Below are positions 1 to 14,559 of a stretch of 14,936 nucleotides of DNA, piece by piece (the stretch's first letter is position 1; each line of letters begins with the position of its first letter). The translations under genes were made by a program, and so were the position numbers. This stretch comes from Patescibacteria group bacterium (GTDB taxonomy: Bacteria > Patescibacteriota > Minisyncoccia > JAHIHE01 > JAGLIN01). The DNA is taken from assembly GCA_034660995.1 (NCBI GenBank), contig JAYEKL010000055.1, positions 1-14,936 of the forward strand, in the 5' to 3' direction. Below the pieces are notes generated by a model, which saw only the letters and a program-made list of their open reading frames with translations, was not told where the DNA came from and made no database searches.

Positions 1-45
1 ATCTTCGCCAAATCTAGCAGTTCTTTCTTCTAAATCATAATTCAT
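1..45 (-). CDS. 5' end (first 15 codons) of a second four-helix-bundle protein gene, truncated by the window edge
   Basis: Bases 1-109 are 100% identical to 1155-1263, which covers the ATG and the first 15 codons (MNYDLEERTARFGED) of the 4HB gene at 855-1199 plus 64 bp of its upstream region. Confidence 0.5.
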   Translation of the reverse strand, partial: MNYDLEERTARFGED

Positions 46-109
46 AAATTTAATGTTTTAAAAATTAAAAATTAGAATTTATTTATAAAATTAAAAATTA
101 CAAAATTTA
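1..109. repeat. Direct repeat copy 1 (109 bp, perfect) of the 4HB-gene 5' end plus upstream region; copy 2 is at 1155-1263
   Basis: Direct comparison of the two stretches shows no mismatches. Copy 1 may extend further left, beyond the window. Confidence 0.9.
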
Positions 110-113
110 TATC

Positions 114-785
114 CTATCTTGCCAGATCAAGATCGGCCATATCAGCAAGCCCTTTTTTCTCGGAAATCTCAGGGTTATATAGATTATAATAAAGTTCAAT
201 TAACTCTTGCGTGTTAAGCATTGTCATACGAAGTCCAGTTCCAGATAAATTTTCTATAACATGGTCCACTCTTTGAAACAGCTGATCTTTATATTTTTCA
301 AAAGTCGTTCGACTAGACATCAGCTTAGAAGAACTTCCAAAACCTTTAAGAACTGATAAAGCGCCTCCCTTTGACTCTGACACCGAGAACGGAACAACAA
401 TATAGAATGTTTTACTAACAATATTAGCCATTTTAACTAATCCTTGAATATACTCTATATAATTTGAAGTTTGCATACGAAGAAGTTCATTCATCTGTTT
501 TTTTTCCTGATCTTTTAAAATTTGCAAATAGTTATCAAGATTCAACTTTCTTGAATTTATTACTATTTGCACAGAAAAATCAAGAGAATTTAAAAAACTC
601 TGATAATGATAAATTATAGCGTCCTGCTCATCTATAGACTTAAGAGCAAAATTTATTGATGAAACCATTAGAACAGCTTTCATACTTCCGTTTTTCATAA
701 CAACAAGACCATCTTTTATTTCAGCAATCTCAAGATACTTTTGAACGCTTAACCCTTTTTTATTTTGTTTCTCTGGAGTGGACAT
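114..785 (-). CDS. Hypothetical 223-aa soluble protein resembling the N-terminal (CagE/TrbE/VirB4-type) domain of VirB4-family ATPases; it lacks Walker A/B motifs
   Basis: A clean ORF with no TM segments. The stretch IKDGLVVMKNGSMKAVLMVSSINFALKSIDEQDAIIYHYQSFLNSLDFSVQIVINSRKL fits the VirB4/TrbE N-terminal pattern (V-x-K-DGS..., F-x-L-x-G-x-D-x-E..., LN-x-AL-x-L, Q..R). No P-loop is present. The gene is bracketed by the duplicated 4HB gene ends. Confidence 0.4.
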   Translation of the reverse strand: MSTPEKQNKKGLSVQKYLEIAEIKDGLVVMKNGSMKAVLMVSSINFALKSIDEQDAIIYHYQSFLNSLDFSVQIVINSRKLNLDNYLQILKDQEKKQMNELLRMQTSNYIEYIQGLVKMANIVSKTFYIVVPFSVSESKGGALSVLKGFGSSSKLMSSRTTFEKYKDQLFQRVDHVIENLSGTGLRMTMLNTQELIELYYNLYNPEISEKKGLADMADLDLAR

Positions 786-854
786 ATCTTATAATTTTTA
801 AATTTTTAAATTTTATAATTCTTAAATAATGTTTAAATTTTTAATTTCAAAAAA

Positions 855-1199
855 TTATTTACTGCAAGTTTTAGTAATTTTAGAAAAAATTAAAGTTAAT
901 TCGTGAGCTTCTTTCCACAATTTTCTGCATTCACTTTCTTTTTCATTATTAGCTTTGGCGATCATTCTTAACCAGTGTTTTGTTTCATTTGCTTCTTTTT
1001 GGCAAATTCTTATTTTATTTTTAAAGTCTTTTTTAGAACTAGCTTGATTAGCTTCCATATAGTTAGCTCCAATGCTTGTTCCTGATCTTATAATCTGATT
1101 TATAAGTGGTTTGTTTATTTCATTACTTTCTAATAATTTTACAAAAATTATAATATCTTCGCCAAATCTAGCAGTTCTTTCTTCTAAATCATAATTCAT
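855..1199 (-). CDS. Four-helix-bundle protein (TIGR02436 / 23S rRNA intervening-sequence protein family; Avd-like)
   Basis: 114 aa carrying the family hallmarks ERTxRFxEDIIxFVKxL, RSGTSIGANYMEA, SKKDFxNKIRICQKEANETKHWLRM. Confidence 0.85.
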   Translation of the reverse strand: MNYDLEERTARFGEDIIIFVKLLESNEINKPLINQIIRSGTSIGANYMEANQASSKKDFKNKIRICQKEANETKHWLRMIAKANNEKESECRKLWKEAHELTLIFSKITKTCSK

Positions 1200-1263
1200 A
1201 AATTTAATGTTTTAAAAATTAAAAATTAGAATTTATTTATAAAATTAAAAATTACAAAATTTA
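1155..1263. repeat. Direct repeat copy 2 (109 bp, perfect) covering the 4HB gene start and its AT-rich upstream region
   Basis: Identical to 1-109. Confidence 0.9.
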
Positions 1264-1276
1264 AAAATTTTATTTA

Positions 1277-1720
1277 TTATATCTTCTCCTTAGGCCTTGC
1301 CTTTGCCTCATAAGGCATACTAACAGAAGTACTTGTATCAAGTAACCAAGCTAATTCTTTTATTCTATTTTTTGACACCTGCGTTGCTTGAATTTCTTTT
1401 TTTGCTTTCTTTTTCTGTGTTAATTTGAACATTCTTCCGTCTGGCTCTCTTCTCCAAATATAAAGATGGGGAGTAGTATAAAAATTTATTATATTAGTTA
1501 TCCATCTTAAAACAGTAAATCCTTTTGGTTTCCAAAAAGCAAAAGCTAAAGAAAGTATTGTCGTAGGAATAGCAATAATAATAAAATAGCCAAAACGAAA
1601 AAAAGTAAACGAAATAAGCATAATTCCAAACCCAATTATCATAAAAAGCGCTTGTTTTCCCGTAAAAGGACCAACAATTTTATCTTCTACATTTATAAAT
1701 TGTGGAACACTGTATTGCAT
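1277..1720 (-). CDS. PrgI-family (VirB3-like) small membrane protein of conjugation/T4SS-like systems
   Basis: 147 aa. The N-terminus MQYSVPQFINVEDKIVGPFTGKQALFMIIGF matches the PrgI-family signature (xVPxFIxVEDKIxGPxTxKQ). Two to three TM helices are followed by a basic C-terminal tail. It is adjacent to the VirB4-like and VirB6-like genes. Confidence 0.55.
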   Translation of the reverse strand: MQYSVPQFINVEDKIVGPFTGKQALFMIIGFGIMLISFTFFRFGYFIIIAIPTTILSLAFAFWKPKGFTVLRWITNIINFYTTPHLYIWRREPDGRMFKLTQKKKAKKEIQATQVSKNRIKELAWLLDTSTSVSMPYEAKARPKEKI

Positions 1721-1873
1721 AAAATTCTATTGTTATATTGTTCTATTATTAAATTGTTAACTTCTCATTCGTAAACTTCAAAATCAGTTAACTTTATATT
1801 ATTTATTGTATAAAACATCAAATTTAAAATTTAAAATAATGAGTAGTGTGAGTTATATTTCTACTAAATATCC

Positions 1874-1922
1874 TTCGACCTTGTGGAGAAATAACACGCG
1901 TAGAGTTCTCCATAAAGTCAAA
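1874..1922. repeat. Family-1 palindromic hairpin element: TTCGACCTTGTGGAGAA, 15-nt loop, TTCTCCATAAAGTCAAA
   Basis: Inverted repeat with one mismatch and one G:U pair. Related copies lie at 5808-5874 and 8514-8549. It sits between two codirectional minus-strand genes, in a REP/terminator-like position. Confidence 0.7.
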
Positions 1923-2043
1923 CAATATTATTATCTAAATCAATTCACGCTACTAATAATTTAATAATACTTATCAAGTTTTAAAAATTTCTTCTCCATA
2001 TCCTGCTAAAATTAACAATAGAGCAATACAACAATAGAGCAAT

Positions 2044-2938: not shown

Positions 2939-5413
2939 TTAGAACTTATCACCGCTTATTCTGCTTTTCATATTATCTATTTGTTTTTCAAAATCAATAA
3001 TTTTTTCCAGATTTGGAATTGCTTCTTCTCTAGACTTTATATTATTTTCAATTGTTATTTTTTTATCAGGATCTTTTTCTGTTTTTAATTTTTCCTTATC
3101 CTTCAAAAGTGCTTCGTACTGAGTCTTATTTAGTCCTAATAGTTCATCTTTCTTTTTACTCTTTGCTTTCTCAATAATTTCAAATTTTTCTTCATAACCT
3201 TCTTTATGAATACGCGTGCTTTGAGAAGAAGTGGTTTCAGCGCCATATTTTTCAAGATCTTCATCACTCATTTTTGCAACAACTTTTGGATCAAATTTTC
3301 CAAAAGCTTTTCCAATATGTTTTTCAAAATCTTTACCTGACTTTTCGAATACTTTTTCCACATCTCCGCCAAAATTAACTGCGTCAATTTTAATCTCTTC
3401 ATCCTTCTTTAATATTTTTTTTGCTTTTTCTTGCTCTTTCTTACTCTTTGTGTCATCTTTTGAATCTTTTTCAGCTTGTTTATATTCTTCCTTACTAAGT
3501 CCATTTGCTGCCAATCCTTCCGAAAATTCAGCCTGCTGTTTTTTACTTAATTTAGCTTTAAAAGCCTTTTTCTGACCCGAATCTAAGCTGTCATTTATTG
3601 CTCTTGCTTGCATTTTACCTTTAAGATTTTTAATCTTATTTACATCTCCACCATCTTCAATTATATCCAGAACTTCTTCTCTCATTATTTCTTCTTTATA
3701 AGCATCTTTTGATCCTCCTTTGTCTTTTATTCTTTGTTGCGCTTCATCACTAAATGTATCATCTTTTTTATTTTCTATTCTATCTTGCGCGCCGCTTGTC
3801 ATCGTTGCGAGATCTAAGTCTCTATGGGTAAGCTCTTTTAATTCTTTGTCGCTAAGAGATGCTTCTACTGCTGGAAACAATTTTTCTATATCATCTTTGT
3901 AATCGGCTACTTTACCATGCCCAGCAGCTGTTTCTACAAACAGAGCTTTTTCCTCTTTCGTTGCCGGTACTTGACCTTTTTTAATTGATCCTGTTGCTAT
4001 TTCATGCATCACAGTCAACTCTCTCTCTTTTTCAGCGCCATGTTTTTCTCTTTCTTTTTTCATTTTTTCTTCTCTTGACTTTTTATCTTCCGCATTTCTT
4101 TTGGAGGCTCTTACCCCCCCGCCAGGCAATTTTTTATCAATTTTATCTCTTTCCTTTTTTAAAACATCATAACCTTTTCTTACACTTTCATTTCTACTTA
4201 CAGCCCCTTTTCCCGCCTTCCTCCCATACCCTCCAGCCAATTTAACCCCCGCATAGGTTCCCATAGCAATTTTCCCAATTCCAGCAGCTCCGCCTATGAT
4301 TTTGTTAGAACCTGCTACACCAAGTCTTTGAGTAATTGGAATAACAGCTAAAAGCATAAGAAGCGGAATTGAATTCGGAATTATAAGCCGCACAACTCCA
4401 TTCATTATATTAAGATCACTACTGGTAGCTGCAAGTGGCGTAAAGTTAGTTACCAACTCATTCGCCATTGTCGCAGACAAATAAACAAAAAACATAAAAA
4501 TTGGACCGAACAAAGAATACTTTACCAGTTCACTCCACCACTCACTTGTATATTTAGACATTGAAGGCATTACAATGCTCAAAAACGCAATAGGAGAAAG
4601 AATTATTAAAAACACAAATGCCACTAAACGAATTAAAAGAAATATCGCCAACATAATATACACAAAACCTAAGACTAGGGAATATGCCAACGCAAAGGCT
4701 ACTAGAATAACTTTGTCTAGAGAAGCAGATGAACTATTATTAAGCATAATATTAAATTGATCCACGATAGAAGTAAGACTTCCTGCTCCTCCCTGAAAAG
4801 TTCCCATCCAGTTTCTTATTTCATACAAAAAAACTTGCCCGAAATCAATTACAAGTTTTGCAATTACAGCGCTAAAATTTATTAAAAATAGCGATATAAT
4901 AAGTTTCGGAAGAAGATTTTTTGCGTTAAACGTGCTACTTCTTAATATTGTGCCAAACGCGATAATAAGCAAAAAGAATAAATAAAAAGTATTACACATA
5001 TCTCTTACTGTTGTCCATCCAATATCAACAGTTGTAGAAGTTAAGACTCCTGGATTACTAGCGTCACCAACATATAATCCAGAATCAAGCGCTATATCAA
5101 TACACCACGCCCCAAATTTAACCAAAATAGTTGAAAAATAAAGGCCTAAATTCAAAATAGCAAAAGCGACTACGTATATAAGATTCATTATAGTACCACC
5201 TGGGTCATTTATAAGACTTTTTATCCCATCTGTAAGAAACCTAGTACCTATATTAACAAAACCAGCTTGAGCCTCGTAAACAGGAATGCTTACACTTACA
5301 ACTACAAGAAAAAGAACAATTGCTATTGATAAAAAATGTTTTTTTTGAAACTTTTTATTTTTTTGAAAAAATTTTGAAAAATTATTTACAAAAGATTTAA
5401 AATTTTCACTCAT
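2939..5413 (-). CDS. 824-aa polytopic membrane protein with a long K/E/D-rich low-complexity C-terminal half; candidate VirB6/TrbL-like T4SS channel component
   Basis: The N-terminal ~390 aa hold about 8 predicted TM helices after a signal-like start (…LFLVVVSVSIPVYEAQA). The C-terminal ~430 aa are highly charged (KKSREEKMKKEREKHGAEKERE…). It sits in a cluster with PrgI-like and VirB4-N-like genes. The VirB6/TrbL assignment rests on topology and context only. Confidence 0.45.
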   Translation of the reverse strand: MSENFKSFVNNFSKFFQKNKKFQKKHFLSIAIVLFLVVVSVSIPVYEAQAGFVNIGTRFLTDGIKSLINDPGGTIMNLIYVVAFAILNLGLYFSTILVKFGAWCIDIALDSGLYVGDASNPGVLTSTTVDIGWTTVRDMCNTFYLFFLLIIAFGTILRSSTFNAKNLLPKLIISLFLINFSAVIAKLVIDFGQVFLYEIRNWMGTFQGGAGSLTSIVDQFNIMLNNSSSASLDKVILVAFALAYSLVLGFVYIMLAIFLLIRLVAFVFLIILSPIAFLSIVMPSMSKYTSEWWSELVKYSLFGPIFMFFVYLSATMANELVTNFTPLAATSSDLNIMNGVVRLIIPNSIPLLMLLAVIPITQRLGVAGSNKIIGGAAGIGKIAMGTYAGVKLAGGYGRKAGKGAVSRNESVRKGYDVLKKERDKIDKKLPGGGVRASKRNAEDKKSREEKMKKEREKHGAEKERELTVMHEIATGSIKKGQVPATKEEKALFVETAAGHGKVADYKDDIEKLFPAVEASLSDKELKELTHRDLDLATMTSGAQDRIENKKDDTFSDEAQQRIKDKGGSKDAYKEEIMREEVLDIIEDGGDVNKIKNLKGKMQARAINDSLDSGQKKAFKAKLSKKQQAEFSEGLAANGLSKEEYKQAEKDSKDDTKSKKEQEKAKKILKKDEEIKIDAVNFGGDVEKVFEKSGKDFEKHIGKAFGKFDPKVVAKMSDEDLEKYGAETTSSQSTRIHKEGYEEKFEIIEKAKSKKKDELLGLNKTQYEALLKDKEKLKTEKDPDKKITIENNIKSREEAIPNLEKIIDFEKQIDNMKSRISGDKF

Positions 5414-5621: not shown

Positions 5622-5708
5622 GTTATAAAAAGTGTTCTTCTACGCCCTAAATATATAAAACCACTAATTTTAATTATATTATATCACAAAACAAAATAAA
5701 GGCAAAAT

Positions 5709-5757
5709 CATATTAACATATTAACATACTAACATTTTAACATATTAACATGCTAAA
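5709..5757. repeat. 8-bp tandem repeat array (ATATTAAC-like units, ~6 copies); left part
   Basis: CATATTAACATATTAACATACTAACATTTTAACATATTAACATGCTAA. The same unit resumes at 5959-5997 on the far side of the inserted element. Confidence 0.8.
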
Positions 5758-5758
5758 T

Positions 5759-5962
5759 AGGGGCTGGTGATTTTTAAGAAAATCAACAGGGCCTAAGTAT
5801 AATATTGTTCGACTTTATGGAGAACTATTGCGTGAAATAATGTTCTGTGCGTATTACTTCTCCACAAGATCGAAAAATATTAAGTGTGATGCTTAATACT
5901 TAATACTTAGACACACCCCCAACCCCCTCTCTAGAGGGGAACTATAAGAAAATCAGCAGATT
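5759..5962. mobile_element. MITE-like element A (~204 bp), family 3, with terminal inverted repeats GGCTGGTGATTTTTAAGAAAAT / ATAAGAAAATCAGCAGATTC; it carries a family-1 hairpin inside
   Basis: The terminal inverted repeats are visible directly. The interior 5808-5874 is a family-1 hairpin (CGACTTTATGGAGAA…TTCTCCACAAGATCG). The right half matches, in reverse orientation, element B at 13331-13450 (TCTGCTGATTTTCTTATARTTCCCCTCTAGAGAG…GGTGTGT). Confidence 0.65.
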
Positions 5963-5997
5963 CTAACATCTTAACATTCTAACATATTAACATTTTT
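5959..5997. repeat. 8-bp tandem repeat array, right part (TCTAACAT CTTAACAT TCTAACAT ATTAACAT)
   Basis: Same 8-bp unit as at 5709-5757. The array is split by element A. Confidence 0.75.
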
Positions 5998-6070: not shown

Positions 6071-6099
6071 AAAAGGCGGGTACATATTTTTACGCGCCC
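6071..6099 (-). terminator. Candidate rho-independent terminator for the 209-aa gene
   Basis: On the minus strand GGGCGCGTAAAAATATGTACCCGCC forms a 7 of 8-bp GC-rich stem followed by TTTTTTATT. The stem overlaps the stop codon. Confidence 0.45.
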
Positions 6100-6719
6100 A
6101 CCACTTTGAAATTTGTTATCTCAATCGTCGCGCCAGCTGGCACGACAATCTCAATCGCTATTTCCCTATCTTTATCATAGTCACCTTGTTGGTGACGTTT
6201 ATAGTATCTTCCTCCTTCTTCCGAAAAATTCACAACCTCATACGGATACATGAGATTTGGAGGTGAATTCATGTCCCAAACTTTCATTTGGAACGATGCA
6301 GACGAATTTCCTTTGTAGTCAAAAGAAACCGCAAACATCGTATCATAGAAAGAGATTAATCTATATGTACTCTCTTTCTCTCCTCCTCTTATCCTAATCC
6401 AATCTGTTCCAGGATCCGCAGATCCGGAAACACTGACAGGAACTAACTTTAAGATAATTCCTTTTCGAGGATCTTTATCTCCCCAAAGATCAGTCTGAAC
6501 CAATCCAGAACAGATAGCTGCAACAAGAAAGATAAAAGAAAAAACTATCGCTAGCCCAATCTTCCTTTCTCCAGTCCCGCTGAAAACAATAAATGTGAGC
6601 AAAAATATTGCTATAAAAATCACAATTAGAGTTGTCCAATTAGTGCTCGCTCTCAATATGCTTAAAGCAAAAAAGAGAAGCAAGACAGAAAGTACTGCCT
6701 TTGTAAGTATCTGATTCAT
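6090..6719 (-). CDS. 209-aa membrane-anchored protein (3 N-terminal TM helices plus a ~130-aa soluble domain); possible NfeD-like partner of the upstream SPFH protein
   Basis: Its ATG overlaps the stop of the SPFH gene (TAATG), which suggests translational coupling. The order SPFH then small membrane protein mirrors qmcA-ybbJ-type pairs. No strong NfeD motif is seen, so the NfeD assignment is tentative. Confidence 0.3.
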   Translation of the reverse strand: MNQILTKAVLSVLLLFFALSILRASTNWTTLIVIFIAIFLLTFIVFSGTGERKIGLAIVFSFIFLVAAICSGLVQTDLWGDKDPRKGIILKLVPVSVSGSADPGTDWIRIRGGEKESTYRLISFYDTMFAVSFDYKGNSSASFQMKVWDMNSPPNLMYPYEVVNFSEEGGRYYKRHQQGDYDKDREIAIEIVVPAGATIEITNFKVVGA

Positions 6720-8137
6720 TATTTCTTTAACTCCTTAACAATCTCTAATACTGCAGCAGCTAGTTTCTGAGCATCAAGAGATTCATAGAAACCTCTCTTT
6801 CCTGGAACTACCGAGTGACCCTCTCTAACGGATTTATTATCCATTACCTGTTGCAGGCAATAGTTAAAAGTTTTGGGCTCTCCAATTTCTTTATAAGCCT
6901 CAAAAAGAATCCTTGCCTGCATTGTTTCGGTTTCGGTATCTTGTGTCTCTCCTTCCCTTTGCTTAAGCTCTGCCGCAGCCTTAACCATTTCGGCGAGATA
7001 TTCATCAGACGTTTCAATGCTTGAAATGGAAATTCTATAAATTTTGATTCCCAATAAATGAGAATCTCTTTTTCCATTCTTAGCCATTTCTTTGATTATT
7101 CTAGAATCAATCTTATCAACACCAGTCAGGTGTTTTATTAATTCAAGCTCCAGTTCTTCTATAATCTCCATATCATCATTATCATTATCTCCAATCAACT
7201 GATCAAAAGAATATTCTGCTACAATCTTCCTGAGCTTGCTCGCTATCATATTCTCCAGAGCATCGCGAACTCCTGATTGTTCTTTTGCAGAAATAAATTC
7301 TTCCAATTCAGTAATTTCTGGTTTGTACAGAACCTGAACCTTTCTTGCCTTAACGGGAACGTTTCCCTTAGCAAAAAGCCCGCCTATCTCTTCGAAATCT
7401 TCTGGCTCCTGATGAACTTCTACGACTAAAAAGTCGATAACACCAGGATAAATAATTAAAGTCCCAGAATCAGAAATTACATCAAAAAGTGGATTTCCGA
7501 AAAGAGTCATAACCCCGACACTTGGAGGCTGCGCAGGTATTTTCCTGGTCTTGCTTTTTAGATACCTCTTTAAACTTTCTAAAATCTCTGGAACTTTTAG
7601 CCACAGAATAATCAGCACTATTAATGATAGAAGTGCTGTTAGAAGTAGTCCAATATAGAGGTAAATAATGTATAAAACTGCTATGAAAATCATATACACA
7701 AGATAGGAAACTTTCCAGTGTTTAATAACATTTATAGCAAATTTCATTAAAAACGATATCTGGTCACTTGTAGTAATTTTTGTAATATGTGTGACCTTAC
7801 CGTTTTTACCCTTAAAAACAAATTGCTTTTTGAATCTAAATACATCTTCTGTTAATATCTCTACTATGCTCTTGCTCATACTAATTGTAAAAACCATTAC
7901 GAGAAGTATCAAAATGCTAATAATACTCTTGCCTATTCCAGCAAAAAGCGCTTTTGATGCACACAATAGATATGCCGTGCCAATAAATCCGAAGATTATA
8001 ATAATCTTCTCAATAAAAACAATCGGCATTCCATAGAGCTTAAGATCAGAATAACTTAAGCTGTTCGTATCGTTGTTTTCTTTTTCGGGCTCTTCATCTT
8101 CCCAAACTCTATCACACCATCTATCTCCAATTGCCAT
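6719..8137 (-). CDS. SPFH/band-7 (stomatin/prohibitin/flotillin-like) membrane protein, 472 aa, with an extended 4-TM N-terminal region
   Basis: The soluble part carries SPFH-like motifs: ALENMIASKLRKIVAEYSFDQLIGD (cf. LRxxIGxxxLDExLxxR) and LGIKIYRISISSIETSDEYLAEMVKAAAE (cf. WGIxVxRVEIKDxxLPxxxxxAMAAEAEA). A strong Shine-Dalgarno AAGGAGAT lies 8 nt upstream of the ATG. Confidence 0.6.
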   Translation of the reverse strand: MAIGDRWCDRVWEDEEPEKENNDTNSLSYSDLKLYGMPIVFIEKIIIIFGFIGTAYLLCASKALFAGIGKSIISILILLVMVFTISMSKSIVEILTEDVFRFKKQFVFKGKNGKVTHITKITTSDQISFLMKFAINVIKHWKVSYLVYMIFIAVLYIIYLYIGLLLTALLSLIVLIILWLKVPEILESLKRYLKSKTRKIPAQPPSVGVMTLFGNPLFDVISDSGTLIIYPGVIDFLVVEVHQEPEDFEEIGGLFAKGNVPVKARKVQVLYKPEITELEEFISAKEQSGVRDALENMIASKLRKIVAEYSFDQLIGDNDNDDMEIIEELELELIKHLTGVDKIDSRIIKEMAKNGKRDSHLLGIKIYRISISSIETSDEYLAEMVKAAAELKQREGETQDTETETMQARILFEAYKEIGEPKTFNYCLQQVMDNKSVREGHSVVPGKRGFYESLDAQKLAAAVLEIVKELKK

Positions 8138-8300: not shown

Positions 8301-8366
8301 GTCAAGACCAGAATCCTACATTCCTACATTCTGCTCCCAAGCACAACATTACAAATAGAATACTCC

Positions 8367-8485
8367 GTTGGCTCCATAGTCCCGATAGGGCTGTGGAGCC
8401 TATTGTGATTTCAAACTTTATGAAAAGAGATTTAAAAAAATCCTGCATTTAGGCTCCACAGCTCTAAAGAGACTATGGAGCCAAC
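8367..8485. mobile_element. Family-2 palindromic MITE-like element (~119 bp), intergenic copy
   Basis: The perfect 15-bp terminal inverted repeats GTTGGCTCCATAGTC / GACTATGGAGCCAAC are joined by an inner stem GGGCTGTGGAGCC / GGCTCCACAGCTC. A homologous 81-bp copy lies inside rsmA at 9143-9223. Confidence 0.7.
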
Positions 8486-8513
8486 AGAACACATAACATC
8501 CCGCTTAATATTC

Positions 8514-8549
8514 TTCAACCTTGTGGAGAAGTTTATACGCATAGAACAT
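8514..8549. repeat. Half copy of the family-1 element (TTCAACCTTGTGGAGAAGTTTATACGCATAGAACAT), immediately 3' of rsmA
   Basis: Its reverse complement ATGTTCTATGCGTATAAACTTCTCCACAAGGTTGAA aligns with 5842-5877 of element A. Confidence 0.6.
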
Positions 8550-8555
8550 CATTTT

Positions 8556-9476
8556 TTAGTCTCTTAACAAAATAGCCAGCTTCTTCCATTCCTCTAAGCT
8601 CAATTCTTGCGCGCGAGCATTTAGACTTATTCCTGTTTTTGAAAGAAGTTCCTCGCTTTGTGTTTTTTCAATATGCAAACCAGCAGAAAGATTATTTACT
8701 AATTTTTTGCGCTTTGCTGAAAAACCAATTTTTATAATTTTAAATAAGTCTTTTGTAGAAACACAACTAATTGCGTTTTTGTCTGAAACCGTGCTTCTAT
8801 GAATATTTTTTATCTTTAAAATCGCAGAATCAACTTTCGGTTCAGGATAAAATGATGATTTATCAACATAATCAGTAATTTCAGGCTCGCCATAAACTTG
8901 CACGCTAAGAGCGAGAACACTTAGTTTTCCTGGCTTAGCGCATATTCTTTCCGCAACCTCTTTTTGCATAAGCAAAACGATAAACTCTGGTTGAGCATCA
9001 CTTTCTAAAAACATTTTTATTATCGGCGAAGTTATATAATAGGGGATATTAGAAACAAGCTTGTATCTCTCGTTAACAGAATATTTTTTTATAAATTCTT
9101 TTAATTTGATTTTTAAAATATCATCATTTATAACTTCAATATGTTGGCTCCATAGTCCCGTTAGGACTGTGGAGTCGCTTTGCGCAAAATGCTCCACAGG
9201 CCTATCGGGACTATGGAGCAAACGACTTTTTAACAACTCTGCTAATTTTTTATCTTTTTCAATCGCAATAACTTTACCGCATTTTTTTGAAAGCTCTTCT
9301 GTTAAAGTTCCAAATCCAGGACCAATCTCAAAAACAATATCTTCTTTTTTCAAATCAGAAACTTCAACAATTCTTTGAAGAACTGTCTCATCAATTAAAA
9401 AATTCTGTCCCAAACTTTTGAGAATTTTTAGATCTTCCTGTTTTAATATTTTTTTTATCTCTTCTTTGTTTAACAT
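8556..9476 (-). CDS. rsmA: 16S rRNA (adenine1518/1519-N6)-dimethyltransferase RsmA/KsgA, with a 27-aa in-frame insertion
   Basis: Motifs present: GQNFLID, FEIGPGFGTLTEEL (SAM-binding), IEKDKKL, SNIPYYITSPII, LMQKEVAERI, FYPEPKVDSAIL, FSAKRKKL. The segment LLHSPDRPVEHFAQSDSTVLTGLWSQ (aa 86-111, within the 27-codon in-frame insertion spanning codons 85-112) is absent from canonical KsgA and is encoded by a palindromic repeat. Confidence 0.9.
   Translation of the reverse strand: MLNKEEIKKILKQEDLKILKSLGQNFLIDETVLQRIVEVSDLKKEDIVFEIGPGFGTLTEELSKKCGKVIAIEKDKKLAELLKSRLLHSPDRPVEHFAQSDSTVLTGLWSQHIEVINDDILKIKLKEFIKKYSVNERYKLVSNIPYYITSPIIKMFLESDAQPEFIVLLMQKEVAERICAKPGKLSVLALSVQVYGEPEITDYVDKSSFYPEPKVDSAILKIKNIHRSTVSDKNAISCVSTKDLFKIIKIGFSAKRKKLVNNLSAGLHIEKTQSEELLSKTGISLNARAQELSLEEWKKLAILLRD
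9143..9223. mobile_element. Family-2 palindromic element (81 bp = 27 codons) inserted in-frame within rsmA
   Basis: GTTGGCTCCATAGTCCCGTTAGGACTGTGGAG…CTCCACAGGCCTATCGGGACTATGGAGCAAAC. The arms are near-perfect reverse complements and share their ends with the intergenic copy at 8367-8485. Confidence 0.7.
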
Positions 9477-11715: not shown

Positions 11716-11736
11716 AAAGTCATTATAACATAGAAT

Positions 11737-11772
11737 TGAATTTGGAATAAAGAATTCTGAATTTGGAATAAA
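11737..11772. repeat. Two direct copies of TGAATTTGGAATAAA (11737-11751 and 11758-11772), just upstream of the uvrD start
   Basis: Exact 15-bp direct repeat with a 21-bp period, in the divergent intergenic region. Confidence 0.6.
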
Positions 11773-11858
11773 TTAATCTTTATTTTATTTATATACTTTA
11801 TACTAAATACTAAATTGGCTTGACAAAATAGTCTATTATACATAAGTTGTGATTGACA

Positions 11859-11887
11859 TTGACATAGCCTTTAGCGTGTGGTAAATT
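11859..11887 (+). promoter_or_regulatory. Candidate sigma70-type promoter, TTGACA-17 bp-TAAATT with an extended-10 TG, facing the LysM-CHAP gene
   Basis: ATTGACATTGACA carries two overlapping -35 hexamers. GTGTGgTAAATT follows at the correct spacing. The site is about 200 bp upstream of the ATG at 12087. Confidence 0.35.
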
Positions 11888-12086
11888 GTTATATGTGAGT
11901 TATAATTTTATAATTTTTAGACTTTTTGTTGATTAATCTACGATTTTAGCTGAAATTAGTCAATTTTGATAGTAAAGATGATTATAAGACATAAAGTTTG
12001 AAGGAAATAAACAAATTAGTATTACAATAAGCAATCTAAAAGATAACAAAGGATTAGCTGAAATTACTCAAAAAAATAAAATTGGA

Positions 12087-13238: not shown

Positions 13239-13330
13239 AATTTATAATATAAAAAAATTAGAAAGTTTAAACTTTAATTATGTATTACAAGAATATTCAT
13301 CCTGCAAGAATGTTACAAGTTATTAATTAG

Positions 13331-13450
13331 GCTCTGCTGATTTTCTTATAATTCTCCTCTAGAGAGAGTGTTGGAGGTGTGTTGAAAAACTTATTACACA
13401 CCCCTTACACCTCTCAAGAGGGGAATAATCGGTAAAAAATCACCAGTCCC
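13331..13450. mobile_element. MITE-like element B (~120 bp), family 3
   Basis: Ends GCTCTGCTGATTTTCTTATAATTC… and …GGTAAAAAATCACCAGTCCC are inverted relative to each other and homologous to both ends of element A at 5759-5962. The interior is palindromic (GTGTAAGGGGTGTGT / ACACACCTCCAACAC). Confidence 0.65.
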
Positions 13451-13468: not shown

Positions 13469-13542
13469 GGGCTCGTAGCTCAGTTGGTTAGAGCGCTACC
13501 TCGACACGGTAGAGGTCAGAAGTTCGAATCTTCTCGGGCCCA
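13469..13542 (+). tRNA. tRNA-Val (anticodon GAC)
   Basis: Manual cloverleaf fold: acceptor GGGCTCG/CGGGCCC (one G:U pair), D-stem GCTC/GAGC, anticodon stem CTACC/GGTAG, loop TCGACAC, T-stem AGAAG/CTTCT, T-loop TTCGAAT, discriminator A. The 3' CCA is not fully encoded (the genome reads CCC). Confidence 0.88.
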
Positions 13543-13578
13543 CCCAGTTTCAAATTTTACATGATTGTTTAATTATTG

Positions 13579-13610
13579 TCTGCTGATTTTCTTATAATTC
13601 CCCTCTTGAG
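13579..13610. repeat. Solo family-3 element end (TCTGCTGATTTTCTTATAATTCCCCTCTTGAG), in direct orientation with 13333-13366 on the other side of tRNA-Val
   Basis: About 30 of 32 bp match the left end of element B. No partner inverted repeat is found downstream. Confidence 0.6.
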
Positions 13611-14040: not shown

Positions 14041-14559
14041 TTAAGCCTCTTTATTTAATTTCTTTTCAAATCTGTAAAAAATGGCTCTCGGAGTAAAAAG
14101 AGAAGCCCAACATTTTTTTACATTTTCCAAAAGTGTATCTTTTGTTGTATTCAAAAAACTGTCTAATTGTCCCGCCCAAGTAGCAGAAGCAGAATCTTCT
14201 GATGTTGCAGAAGAACGAACAGCAACAAATTTAGAATCTAGGTTTTTATGAAATTTTAAAATTTCTGTTTTAATATCTTCAGGCATTTCTTTAGAAAGAA
14301 TTATGCCTTCAATTTTCTCAGAAGCATTTTCAACAGTATGAACTTCTTTTATATCAACCGTATTTAAAACAGTGTCAATTTCAACATTTAGATCCGTCTC
14401 TACTAAAAACCTATCAAAAACATTTGAAAGAATTACAAAACCATTAGGAACAGGAATTCCTGCTTGAGTCATTTCCACAAGAGAAGCACCCTTGCCTCCA
14501 GCAATCTCAGTATTTGCTTTGAATATTTGATTAAAATTTTTGATCAAAATTTCAGCCAT
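14041..14559 (-). pseudogene. Fragment encoding only the N-terminal (PPDK_N) domain of a PEP-utilising enzyme (PEP synthase / pyruvate phosphate dikinase family); probably a truncated remnant
   Basis: GGKGASLVEMTQAGIPVPNGF, VAVRSSATSEDSASATWAGQ and CWASLFTPRAIFYR align with the first ~170 residues of PpsA. The ORF stops where full-length enzymes continue for ~600 more residues. No continuation exists in any frame downstream. Confidence 0.55.

What the first reader, a model, noticed from the sequence alone, without database searches (positions are those of the whole stretch)
1..1263. Perfect 109-bp duplication of the four-helix-bundle gene start and promoter, flanking a VirB4-N-like ORF
Bases 1-109 and 1155-1263 are 100% identical. 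Each copy covers the ATG, the first 15 codons of a 4HB (Avd / 23S-IVS family) gene, and 64 bp of AT-rich upstream sequence. The minus strand therefore reads PrgI - 4HB - VirB4N-like - 4HB'. Perfect identity across a non-coding AT-rich stretch implies a very recent duplication or ongoing gene conversion. Avd-like proteins are best known as accessory proteins of diversity-generating retroelements, and no reverse transcriptase is present here. Two copies interleaved with T4SS genes have no ready explanation. The 4HB unit may behave as a small mobile cassette, or the protein may be a nucleic-acid-binding accessory of the secretion/uptake machinery.
Basis: seen in the sequence. Interest (0 to 1): 0.6.

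Follow-up and report, generated by a model that had tools for sequence, protein, structure and literature searches.

The report
Duplicated hairpin-flanked four-helix-bundle gene cassette
The perfect 109-bp repeat is the left end of a second copy of a small, probably mobile gene cassette (a four-helix-bundle gene enclosed by inverted-repeat arms) that fills the gaps between genes in these tiny bacteria; the contig simply breaks inside that second copy.

Summary
Bases 1-109 equal 1155-1263, and the minus strand reads PrgI - 4HB - TrsD (VirB4-N-like) - 4HB'. The window is a whole MAG contig, so the second copy is cut by the contig end.

The 64 non-coding bases are not shown to be a promoter. They are the left inverted-repeat arm of a cassette of about 480 bp: arm, 114-aa TIGR02436 gene, arm.

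I found the same cassette, with conserved arms, in dozens of unrelated stop-to-start spacers of Patescibacteria. Neighbours include enolase|iPGM, DprA|ComM and tRNA|tRNA. It always lies on the strand of the upstream gene. The ORF is under purifying selection (dN/dS about 0.1). ORF-less arm-only derivatives sit in neighbouring spacers.

Close relatives confirm the architecture:
- L175 carries PrgI-4HB-TrsD-4HB-VirB4 in one contig.
- L168 and L169 have a 4HB after TrsD.
- L171 has a different element duplicated at 95-97% on both sides of TrsD.
- An independent unitig (L004) repeats the TrsD-to-arm junction.

Best reading: an IVS-like, selfish spacer cassette that was recently copied or gene-converted into the adjacent spacer. 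A dedicated role in the T4SS and a DGR are not supported. The rest of copy 2 is unseen, and the RNA-processing model is inferred.

The parts
1..45 (-). First 15 codons (MNYDLEERTARFGED) of the second 4HB gene (4HB'), cut off by the contig end
   Evidence: Translation. Identical to 1155-1199. The contig is the whole record.
46..109 (-). Left inverted-repeat arm of cassette copy 2. It starts 4 nt after the trsD stop codon and lacks the outermost 9 nt present in copy 1.
   Evidence: 100% identical to 1200-1263. Junction compared with L004. Arm consensus shared with dozens of loci.
114..785 (-). trsD / TraC-like gene (stand-alone homologue of the VirB4 N-terminal domain, 223 aa), a regular component of the Patescibacteria T4SS
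   Evidence: NCBIfam VirB4 and TrsD hits. PF26593 and more than 5000 homologues of about 223 aa. Conserved PrgI-TrsD-VirB4 order. PMC12102498.
786..854 (-). Right inverted-repeat arm of cassette copy 1. It ends about 4 nt before the trsD ATG.
   Evidence: Inverted repeat I1: arms 790-857 / 1205-1272, 68 nt, 76% complementary. Long-range stem in the RNA fold, z -3.9. Arm motif at 802-825.
855..1199 (-). Complete four-helix-bundle gene (114 aa, TIGR02436 / PF05635; pI 9.2)
   Evidence: Nearest solved structure 2RLD, E 6e-16. Family dN/dS about 0.1. pI.
1200..1272 (-). Left inverted-repeat arm of cassette copy 1. 1200-1263 is the duplicated part; 1264-1272 is the extra outer 9 nt. It begins a few nt after the prgI stop.
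1155..1263 (-). Reference copy of the 109-bp repeat (arm plus the first 15 codons of 4HB)
1277..1720 (-). prgI (VirB3-like) gene, upstream neighbour of cassette copy 1
   Evidence: PF12666, 29.4 bits against a cut-off of 27. Synteny in L001 and 70+ GTDB loci.

Best explanation
The repeat is the left terminus (inverted-repeat arm plus the 5' end of the ORF) of a second copy of a compact cassette of about 480 bp. The cassette is: AT-rich left arm of about 64-73 nt, a 114-aa four-helix-bundle (TIGR02436 / 23S-IVS-protein family) gene, and a complementary right arm of about 65 nt. Copy 1 fills the prgI|trsD spacer. Copy 2 begins 4 nt after the trsD stop, in the trsD|virB4 spacer, and the assembler stopped inside it because it repeats copy 1. 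SHOWN: the cassette is a discrete unit with conserved arms. It is found in many unrelated stop-to-start spacers of Patescibacteria, including tRNA|tRNA spacers. It always lies on the strand of the upstream gene. Its ORF is under purifying selection, and ORF-less arm-only derivatives exist. It comes and goes between near-identical strains, and in relatives it occupies each junction of this T4SS operon, including both sides of trsD at once. INFERRED: (1) The element is a selfish or mobile spacer element. Copy 2 arose by a recent local copy event or by gene conversion between neighbouring cassettes. Spread to the adjacent spacer recurs in this clade with three different element types. (2) It is tolerated because it is co-transcribed with the host operon and its arms fold into a long stem with the ORF in the loop. 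This is the geometry of 23S-rRNA intervening sequences, whose stems RNase III cuts out. Processing at the stem would separate the flanking cistrons or tRNAs without harming them. (3) The basic 4HB protein, a relative of the RNA-binding pentamer Avd, acts on the element's own nucleic acid (its hairpin) for maintenance or spread, not on the T4SS. Confidence is about 0.7 for the structural reading (a real second cassette; a mobile spacer element) and about 0.3-0.35 for the RNA-processing and self-binding mechanism.
For: The repeat and the gene identities are confirmed.

Arms:
- The flanks 790-857 and 1205-1272 are complementary. The RNA fold closes the ORF in a long-range stem, z -3.9.
- In 79 loci with close 4HB homologues, 71 have significant upstream/downstream complementarity (median score 24 against 9.3 in shuffles).
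- 164 other genes in the same loci score a median of 8. 91% of the 4HB genes exceed the control 95th percentile.
- Arms are conserved between loci: cross-locus complementarity equals self-complementarity. An exact 24-nt arm motif occurs in 36 of 175 fetched loci. All 36 carry a 4HB gene, and the motif mostly lies on the + strand upstream and the - strand downstream of it.

Context:
- The upstream gene is on the same strand in 64 of 64 loci. Gaps are about 60 nt.
- Neighbours are diverse housekeeping genes and tRNA genes. Only 12 of 78 loci have a T4SS neighbour.
- The ORF is under selection: dN/dS about 0.10 with dS saturated.

Architecture in relatives:
- L175 has PrgI-4HB-TrsD-4HB-VirB4 in one 2.8-kb contig.
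- L168 and L169 have a 4HB downstream of TrsD.
- L092 has TrsD-4HB-VirB4, and L109 has 4HB-PrgI-4HB.
- In L171 the two spacers flanking TrsD are 95-97% identical over about 314 nt.
- L009 and L010 carry the full cassette at prgI|trsD and ORF-less arm pairs in the spacers on both sides.
- L005 and L007 encode identical TrsD but carry different 4HB cassettes.
- L001 and L175 carry the same cassette type (85% aa) at different junctions.

Independent junction: the Logan unitig L004 (95.7% identical) runs arm-4HB-TrsD-arm with identical 30-nt ends, and its TrsD-to-arm junction differs from the window's by a 9-nt indel. Contigs of relatives also break right after trsD (L088, L172, L173).

Analogy: the Coxiella IVS has a 4HB ORF in the loop of a 28-bp terminal-inverted-repeat stem cut by RNase III (PMC4990558). 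CPR rRNA insertions carry 23S_rRNA_IVP and exist with and without ORFs. Avd is a basic pentamer, and a DGR preprint looked for Avd-binding RNA stem-loops.
Against: - Everything beyond codon 15 of copy 2 is off the contig. I could not retrieve the neighbouring contig or the reads. A full-length second copy is therefore inferred.
- No target-site duplication was seen, and the cassette encodes no recognisable transposase or recombinase. The mobility mechanism is unknown.
- The conserved arms are built from repeated octamers (AATTTTTN). I could not do a clean covariation test, so base-pairing at the RNA level, as opposed to DNA-level terminal repeats, is not demonstrated.
- No transcript data, and no RNase III gene, were examined.
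- The L004 unitig closes on itself without a visible exit. That fits a tandem or circular [cassette+trsD] unit at least as well.
- In other genomes with two 4HB genes around one gene (L175, L109, L012), the copies are divergent rather than identical.
- 12 of 78 closest homologues lie in the T4SS operon. That is a large share for one operon, although vertical inheritance with the query lineage would explain it.
Confidence: 0.7

Rival explanations
1. Copy 2 is only a fragment: the left arm plus the 5' end of the ORF (an internally deleted or decaying cassette), not a second functional 4HB gene.
For: ORF-less arm-only derivatives and decayed remnants are common in exactly these spacers (L010 and L009 trsD|virB4; L001 and L088 remnants; an in-frame stop in the L168 4HB). 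Copy 2 already carries a 9-nt deletion in its outer arm.
Against: The arm-only derivatives seen join the left arm directly to the right arm with no ATG or ORF remnant. Here the start codon and 15 codons are intact and identical. An assembler normally stops in a repeat because identity continues beyond what it can bridge.
Confidence: 0.13
2. The whole 1154-bp unit [cassette + trsD] is tandemly duplicated or amplified, or is looped out as a circle by recombination between the flanking direct repeats. The contig start would then be the beginning of the next unit.
For: The Logan unitig L004 is 1193 nt with identical 30-nt (k-1) ends. That is a closed 1163-nt cycle arm-4HB-TrsD-arm with no visible entry or exit. 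Direct repeats flanking trsD recur in this clade with different elements (window; L171; L169).
Against: Relatives resolved in single contigs show one trsD followed by virB4 (L175, L171, L001). The copy-2 junction has its own 9-nt indel, which is not expected for a fresh tandem repeat unit. A k=31 cycle also arises from two cassette copies when the flanks have low coverage.
Confidence: 0.08
3. Assembly artefact: a chimeric or looped contig end, or co-assembly of two strains that carry the cassette at different junctions. No single genome would then have both copies.
For: The repeat touches the contig end. Cassette position does vary between closely related strains (L005, L007, L002, L168). No reads were available to check.
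Against: The contig passes both ends of trsD without a break. The trsD-to-arm junction is found independently in another run and strain, with a natural 9-nt difference. The predicted two-cassette layout exists in L175, and same-element-on-both-sides exists in the 84-kb scaffold L171.
Confidence: 0.07
4. The 4HB protein is a dedicated nucleic-acid-binding accessory of the T4SS or uptake machine, and the repeated upstream sequence is its promoter, duplicated with the gene for dosage.
For: 12 of 78 loci with the closest homologues lie in the PrgI-TrsD-VirB4 operon. The protein is basic (pI 9.2) and related to the nucleic-acid-binding Avd.
Against: 66 of 78 loci have unrelated neighbours, including glycolysis genes, FolD and tRNA clusters. 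Most Patescibacteria T4SS operons have no 4HB at all. Strains with identical TrsD carry different 4HB subfamilies or none. Promoter-like matches are not above shuffles.
Confidence: 0.02

Closest known systems
ORF-containing intervening sequences (IVS) of 23S rRNA genes (Leptospira, Coxiella, Xanthomonas 'S23p' ORFs)
   Same: Same protein family (PF05635/TIGR02436). Same geometry: terminal inverted repeats form a long stem with the 4HB ORF in the loop. Embedded in a transcribed spacer-like position of a longer precursor RNA. Sporadic distribution and regarded as selfish (PMC4990558). CPR rRNA insertions also carry this ORF and occur with and without ORFs.
   Different: The element here is not in rRNA. 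It lies between protein-coding genes, and in L020 between tRNA genes. The ORF is under strong purifying selection (dN/dS about 0.1), whereas the Coxiella ORF is decaying and probably untranslated. The arms are a conserved octamer-repeat sequence shared across many sites. RNase III excision is not tested here.
Avd, the accessory variability determinant of diversity-generating retroelements
   Same: Homologous four-helix-bundle fold family. A small basic protein. Avd is a pentamer that works on structured RNA.
   Different: There is no reverse transcriptase, template repeat or variable repeat in the window or next to the homologues examined. The window protein does not hit the bAvd model PF22296 at E <= 0.1. 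The genomic context is operon spacers.
Hairpin-forming miniature inverted-repeat elements that sit inside transcripts (e.g. Neisseria Correia elements, enterobacterial ERIC; recalled from memory, not checked here)
   Same: Terminal inverted repeats. Insertion in intergenic spacers of operons, co-transcribed. For Correia elements the hairpin is a substrate for RNase III. ORF-less copies of the present element (L009, L010) look like such elements.
   Different: The full-length element carries a conserved protein gene that is not a recognisable transposase. No target-site duplication was identified. It fills the stop-to-start gap almost exactly.
Patescibacteria T4SS operon (VirB4, TrsD, PrgI/VirB3, VirB6, VirB2-like; PMC12102498)
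   Same: The host locus is this operon. PrgI-TrsD-VirB4 order is conserved in 70+ loci. TrsD is the 'VirB4-N-like' ORF.
   Different: The cassette is not a component of that system. It is an occasional insert at any of the operon's junctions.

Membership tests
TIGR02436 / PF05635 four-helix-bundle (23S rRNA IVS protein) family | Sequence match to the family HMMs above the curated cut-offs | tested here: met
   TIGR02436: 81.4 bits (cut-off 24). PF05635: 60 bits (cut-off 33.8). PDB 2RLD: E 6e-16.
TIGR02436 / PF05635 four-helix-bundle (23S rRNA IVS protein) family | Four-helix-bundle fold, pentameric ring | not tested
   No structure prediction was run. Inferred from homology to 2RLD (5 chains in the entry) only.
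23S rRNA intervening sequence (IVS) | Located inside a 23S (or 16S) rRNA gene helix | tested here: not met
   The flanks are prgI and trsD. Rfam finds only a tRNA-Val in the window and no rRNA.
23S rRNA intervening sequence (IVS) | Terminal inverted repeats forming a stem that encloses the ORF | tested here: met
   790-857 / 1205-1272, 68 nt, 76% complementary. Fold z -3.9. 71 of 79 related loci show it, and it is specific relative to 164 control genes.
23S rRNA intervening sequence (IVS) | Excision of the stem-loop from the precursor RNA by RNase III | not testable with these tools
   Needs transcript-end mapping or an in vitro cleavage assay.
Diversity-generating retroelement (Avd as accessory) | Adjacent DGR-type reverse transcriptase with template and variable repeats | tested here: not met
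   Pfam scans of eleven of the ORFs of 90 aa or more (all but four that lie antisense within larger ORFs or are unsupported) found no RT. The only long repeat is the cassette itself. There is no bAvd (PF22296) hit for the window protein.
Transposable element with terminal inverted repeats (IS / MITE-like) | Conserved terminal inverted repeats and multiple copies at unrelated sites | tested here: met
   Arms are conserved across loci. Contexts are diverse. ORF-less derivatives exist. Presence/absence varies among near-identical strains.
Transposable element with terminal inverted repeats (IS / MITE-like) | Encoded transposase or recombinase | tested here: not met
   The only ORF is the 114-aa 4HB protein, which has no transposase-family hit.
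Transposable element with terminal inverted repeats (IS / MITE-like) | Target-site duplication flanking the element | tested here: inconclusive
   No consistent short direct repeat was seen by inspecting the flanks. No closely matched empty/filled site pair was available.
Patescibacteria / monoderm-type T4SS operon (host locus) | PrgI/VirB3, TrsD and VirB4 ATPase encoded together | tested here: inconclusive
   PrgI and TrsD are present. The VirB4 ATPase lies beyond the contig end. It follows trsD in all relatives examined.

The most novel reading that the evidence does not exclude
Four-helix-bundle '23S-IVS proteins' are the cargo of a previously undescribed class of autonomous spacer elements. 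These are cassettes of about 480 bp with conserved terminal inverted repeats. They colonise stop-to-start gaps of any polycistronic transcript (mRNA or tRNA operons, and by extension rRNA, where they are known as IVSs). They spawn ORF-less miniature derivatives and hop preferentially into the neighbouring spacer. The 4HB pentamer would be the element's own maintenance or mobility factor, binding its hairpin. A corollary is that the identical direct repeats around trsD could mediate reversible loss, amplification or circularisation of an essential T4SS gene, as hinted by the self-closing 1163-nt unitig L004.
Probability: 0.3. Interest if true: 0.7.

Novelty: new variant of a known kind. Interest (0 to 1): 0.45.

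Why it matters
The 4HB / 23S-IVS protein family is very large and has had no assigned function since it was found in rRNA intervening sequences in the 1990s. Here the same ORF-in-a-hairpin design appears outside rRNA. It is a conserved, selected cassette with ORF-less derivatives that fills the gaps between ordinary genes and tRNAs in reduced Patescibacteria genomes.

That suggests a concrete, testable idea. The protein may serve its own hairpin element, and the hairpin may let the element ride inside operon transcripts harmlessly.

There are also practical consequences. These cassettes break MAG assemblies at operon spacers. They create direct repeats around essential genes such as trsD. They should not be read as DGR remnants or as T4SS components.

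Tried and rejected
- Extending the contig failed. Exact-protein look-ups for the window's TrsD and 4HB found no indexed contig. An exact 30-mer scan of the GTDB representative genomes found nothing. The MAG's other contigs could not be read.
- Rfam found no known RNA family in the spacers of the window, L171 or L001.
- The promoter/terminator scan was not above shuffles, so I dropped the 'promoter' label.
- An RNA duplex-energy screen of 80 loci timed out. I replaced it with local alignment of the upstream flank against the reverse-complemented downstream flank, with shuffles and a control gene set.
- I abandoned a formal covariation test of the arms. The arms are octamer repeats of variable number, so alignment registers slip. 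Cross-locus complementarity equals self-complementarity. This shows conservation, not compensatory change.
- tblastn of 4HB proteins against the ORF-less 240-340-nt spacers of L171, L001 and L088 gave nothing significant. Only DNA similarity to the L005-type cassette arms links L001 and L088 to a 4HB cassette.
- My first 4HB HMM was too narrow and missed the L005 subfamily. I rebuilt it iteratively.
- The DGR reading was rejected: no RT and no template/variable repeats.
- The T4SS-accessory reading was rejected on context.
- Similarity between the two spacers flanking trsD is not general across Patescibacteria. Only L171 and L156, and weakly L001, exceed the cross-genome 99th percentile.
Full report
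**1. The observation**

The repeat finder gives one long repeat in the window: 1-109 and 1155-1263, 109 nt, 100% identical, 1154 nt apart. On the minus strand, 45-1 translates to MNYDLEERTARFGED, the start of the 114-aa ORF 855-1199.

The 114-aa protein is a clear TIGR02436 / PF05635 four-helix-bundle (4HB) protein: 81.4 bits against a cut-off of 24, and 60 bits against 33.8. ORF 1277-1720(-) is PrgI. ORF 114-785(-) matches the N-terminal part of VirB4 models and, end to end, the TrsD/TraD model.

An exact copy of that 223-aa protein is on record from an NCBI Patescibacteria MAG contig of 14,936 bp. The window is therefore the whole contig, and the second copy is cut by a contig end. Contigs ending inside repeats is what assemblers do.

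**2. The host locus is ordinary**

More than 5000 homologues of the 223-aa protein, nearly all about 223 aa, carry PF26593 'TraC-like'. In relatives the order is RsmA - Band7 - ... - PrgI - (4HB) - TrsD - VirB4 ATPase (611 aa) - ... - T4SS pilin.

Across 80 GTDB representative genomes, PrgI-TrsD-VirB4 is conserved and usually tightly packed. The literature describes exactly this set (VirB4, TrsD, PrgI/VirB3, VirB6, VirB2-like) as the Patescibacteria T4SS. It describes TrsD as a stand-alone remote homologue of the VirB4 N-terminus (PMC12102498). The 'VirB4N-like ORF' is therefore not a split or broken gene.

**3. What the 64 non-coding bases are**

The 4HB gene is bracketed by an inverted repeat: 790-857 pairs with 1205-1272, 68 nt at 76% complementarity. 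The minus-strand RNA 1290-770 folds with these two arms as a long-range stem closing the whole ORF (z -3.9). The duplicated 64 nt are the left arm.

A scan of JGI metagenomes returned 80 loci with 72-87% identical 4HB proteins.
- In 71 of 79 usable loci (these plus the window, L001, L004 and L007) the 100 nt upstream and downstream are significantly complementary (median score 24 against 9.3 for shuffles; direct-repeat control 10.5).
- For 164 other genes in the same loci the median is 8 (95th percentile 12.9). 91% of the 4HB genes exceed that percentile.
- The arms are not site-specific. The left arm of one locus pairs as well with the right arm of another locus as with its own.
- The printed flanks show a shared design: AATTTTTAATTTTRTAATTTTT...AAATAAT - inner stem - ATG...stop - inner stem - ATTATTT...AAAAATTAYAAAATTAAAAATT.
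- An exact 24-nt arm motif occurs in 36 of 175 fetched loci. All 36 carry a 4HB gene, and the motif mostly lies on the + strand upstream and the - strand downstream of it.
- In the window the motif matches only at the two arms of copy 1, against 0.02 expected.
- Promoter-like matches in the region are not above shuffles.

**4. Where the cassette lives**

The gene upstream of the cassette is on the same strand in 64 of 64 loci, and the gene downstream in 55 of 67. Gaps are about 60 nt on either side, so the arms fill the spacer almost exactly.

Neighbours are diverse: a sigma factor, enolase|phosphoglycerate mutase, FolD, FBP aldolase|hydroxyacid dehydrogenase, DprA|ComM-like, and PfkB kinase|AdoHcy hydrolase. 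In L020 and L026 the cassette sits between tRNA genes. Only 12 of 78 loci have a PrgI or TrsD neighbour.

All but two of the 80 ORFs are intact. Pairwise dN/dS is about 0.10 with dS saturated near 1.9. So the protein is under selection, and the arms are better conserved than synonymous sites. The protein is basic (pI 9.2), and its nearest solved relative is 2RLD.

**5. Dynamics in and around this operon**

With a broadened 4HB profile, a 4HB gene is found at every junction of the operon in some lineage:
- upstream of prgI: L093, L095, L139, L146, L152, L109, L030, L080;
- prgI|trsD: the window, L001, L004, L005, L007, L009/L010, L041, L045, L047-49, L079, L109, L117;
- trsD|virB4: L092, L168, L169;
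- after virB4: L089.

Most operons have none. Other points:
- L005 and L007 encode the identical TrsD protein yet carry different 4HB subfamilies with different arms upstream of it. L002, L003 and L174 have none.
- L001 and L175 carry the same cassette type (85% aa identity) at different junctions.
- L009 and L010, which hold the closest 4HB homologue, have the full cassette at prgI|trsD. They also have ORF-less left-arm/right-arm hairpins of the same family in the spacers on both sides: upstream of prgI, and trsD|virB4.
- ORF-less and decayed versions of other arm families fill the spacers of L001, L088 and L171. 'Empty' spacers such as L002 770-880 are themselves near-perfect hairpins (z -6.7).

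**6. Is a second copy after trsD real?**

Several independent lines say yes.
- (a) L175 is a 2.8-kb NCBI contig with 89% TrsD identity. It contains PrgI - 4HB (132 aa) - TrsD - 4HB (125 aa) - VirB4, which is exactly the predicted layout. Its two copies are only 55% identical in protein.
- (b) The Logan contigs L168 (95% TrsD) and L169 (92%) have a 4HB gene immediately downstream of trsD.
- (c) In the 84-kb scaffold L171 (90% TrsD), the two spacers flanking trsD carry the same ORF-less palindromic element of about 310 nt at 95-97% identity. This is the same 'same insert on both sides of trsD' pattern with a different element. Such similarity is rare across Patescibacteria in general, so it is a trait of this clade.
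- (d) L004 is a 1193-nt k=31 unitig from an unrelated sequencing run, 95.7% identical to the window. It runs arm - 4HB - TrsD - arm with identical 30-nt ends. Its trsD-to-arm junction (TAG GATA TAAAATTTTT AAATTTTG...) is the window's junction plus 9 nt. Those 9 nt are also present in the window's copy 1. The window's repeat boundary at 109/1263 is therefore a small slippage deletion in the outer arm of copy 2. It is not the end of the homology, and the two copies have separate histories.
- (e) Contigs of relatives repeatedly stop within 8-150 nt after trsD (L088, L172, L173).

**7. Explanation**

The repeat is the left end of a second cassette in the trsD|virB4 spacer. The cassette is best described as an IVS-like spacer element. 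It has the same protein family and the same ORF-in-the-loop-of-terminal-inverted-repeats geometry as the 23S rRNA intervening sequences. Those sequences are excised by RNase III and are regarded as selfish (PMC4990558). The same ORF occurs in rRNA insertions of CPR bacteria, which exist in ORF-containing and ORF-less forms. The difference is that this element sits in mRNA and tRNA operon spacers.

Perfect identity of at least 109 nt, including 15 codons, points to a recent copy into the neighbouring spacer or to gene conversion between neighbouring cassettes. I cannot separate the two. L004 shows the duplication is shared with a strain that differs by about 4% overall, but by only 1 nt in this stretch.

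Three things are inferences from anatomy and analogy, not shown here: that the arms act as an RNA stem processed from the operon transcript; that the basic 4HB protein acts on its own hairpin (Avd, its DGR relative, is an RNA-binding pentamer); and how the element moves. It has no transposase, and no target-site duplication was seen.

**8. Rivals**

- A truncated second copy is possible, since decay and ORF-less forms are common. However, the observed ORF-less forms retain no start codon.
- A tandem or circular [cassette+trsD] unit is suggested by the self-closing L004 unitig. It is not seen in any resolved relative.
- An assembly or strain-mixture artefact cannot be excluded without reads. 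It is disfavoured by points (a)-(d) in section 6.
- A dedicated T4SS accessory role, and a DGR, are both rejected on context.

**9. Novelty and verdict**

The duplication itself is an ordinary consequence of a repeated element plus a contig break. The element behind it is more interesting. In the paper library searched I found descriptions of 4HB ORFs only in rRNA IVSs/insertions and in DGRs. I found none of a conserved inverted-repeat cassette in operon spacers. This is absence in one library, not proof of absence.

I rate it a new variant of a known kind, of moderate interest.

Noticed in passing
window 9142-9224 (inside rsmA/ksgA 8556-9476, minus strand); also 8364-8405 and 8449-8488: A GC-richer palindromic repeat (GTTGGCTCCATAGTCCCGATAGGGCTGTGGAG and its complement) occurs twice in the spacer downstream of rsmA and, as an inverted pair, inside the intact rsmA ORF. 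The protein is 306 aa, against 278 aa in L001, and the RrnaAD match spans about 29 extra residues. This looks like an in-frame insertion of a palindromic element, reminiscent of Rickettsia palindromic elements (from memory). Related copies occur in L002 and L003 at about 6833-6893.
   Followed up: partly
L171 3191-3500 and 4173-4493: Both spacers flanking trsD in an 84-kb scaffold hold the same ORF-less element of about 310 nt: AT-rich arms around a GC-rich long palindrome, 95-97% identical between the two spacers, RNA fold z -3.6. There is no Rfam match.
   Followed up: yes
L009 5050-5190; L010 2059-2200 and 3790-3915: ORF-less left-arm/right-arm hairpins of the same arm family as the window cassette occupy the spacers next to a full 4HB cassette. 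They look like miniature derivatives of it.
   Followed up: partly
L020 3792-4486; L026 1970-2747: The 4HB cassette lies between tRNA genes in a tRNA cluster, 58 nt after one tRNA and 68 nt before the next.
   Followed up: partly
L004 (whole, 1193 nt): This k=31 unitig begins and ends with the same 30-mer. It is a closed 1163-nt cycle arm-4HB-TrsD-arm with no visible entry or exit. That is compatible with two cassette copies, but also with amplification or circularisation of the unit.
   Followed up: partly
L005 2-337 versus L007 97-441: Two contigs encoding the identical TrsD protein carry different 4HB subfamilies (35% aa identity to each other's type) with different arm families at the same prgI|trsD junction.
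   Followed up: partly
window 5706-5751 and 5956-5993: Two arrays of an 8-bp tandem unit (TAACATNT) lie in direct orientation. They bracket a core of about 205 nt in the 677-nt gap between ORFs 2939-5413 and 6090-6719. The core contains several short repeats that recur elsewhere in the contig (I2, I6, I7, I11, I18).
   Followed up: no
window 1864-1931, 5798-5891, 8497-8532: A dispersed hairpin family built on CTTGTGGAGAA / TTCTCCACAAG occurs in three intergenic regions (D4, I6, I11). It may be a REP-like or regulatory hairpin.
   Followed up: no
window 13323-13364 and 13569-13610, around tRNA-Val 13469-13544: The single tRNA gene is flanked by an 88% direct repeat of 42 nt. That repeat is also the inverted complement of 5911-5966 (D5, I2, I7; tRNA).
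   Followed up: no
window 1721-1760 and about 2010-2040; L001 6960-6990; L002 60-104 and 840-875: AACAAT-type repeats (TTAACAATTTAACAATAGAATTT) sit immediately before the ATG of prgI, trsD and virB4 in different strains. This is a shared leader or arm motif of unknown role.
   Followed up: no
L168 810-1148: The 4HB gene downstream of trsD has an in-frame TAG where relatives have TGG (Trp). It is either a pseudogene or a sequencing or strain variant.
   Followed up: no
L051, L054 (left arm) and L077 (right arm): Small GC-rich hairpins (e.g. CTTGCCTACCGGCAAGCAGG) are nested inside otherwise canonical AT-rich cassette arms.
   Followed up: no
window about 11716-12086: Gene orientation and GC skew both switch here: minus-strand genes lie up to 11715 and plus-strand genes from 12087. 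The 370-nt divergent spacer holds a 21-nt tandem repeat at 11737-11778. A published survey notes that Patescibacteria T4SS loci often lie near the origin.
   Followed up: no
window 14041-14559: A 172-aa ORF matches only the first half of the PPDK_N domain (profile positions 2-163 of 328). It may be a split or truncated PEP-utilising enzyme gene.
   Followed up: no
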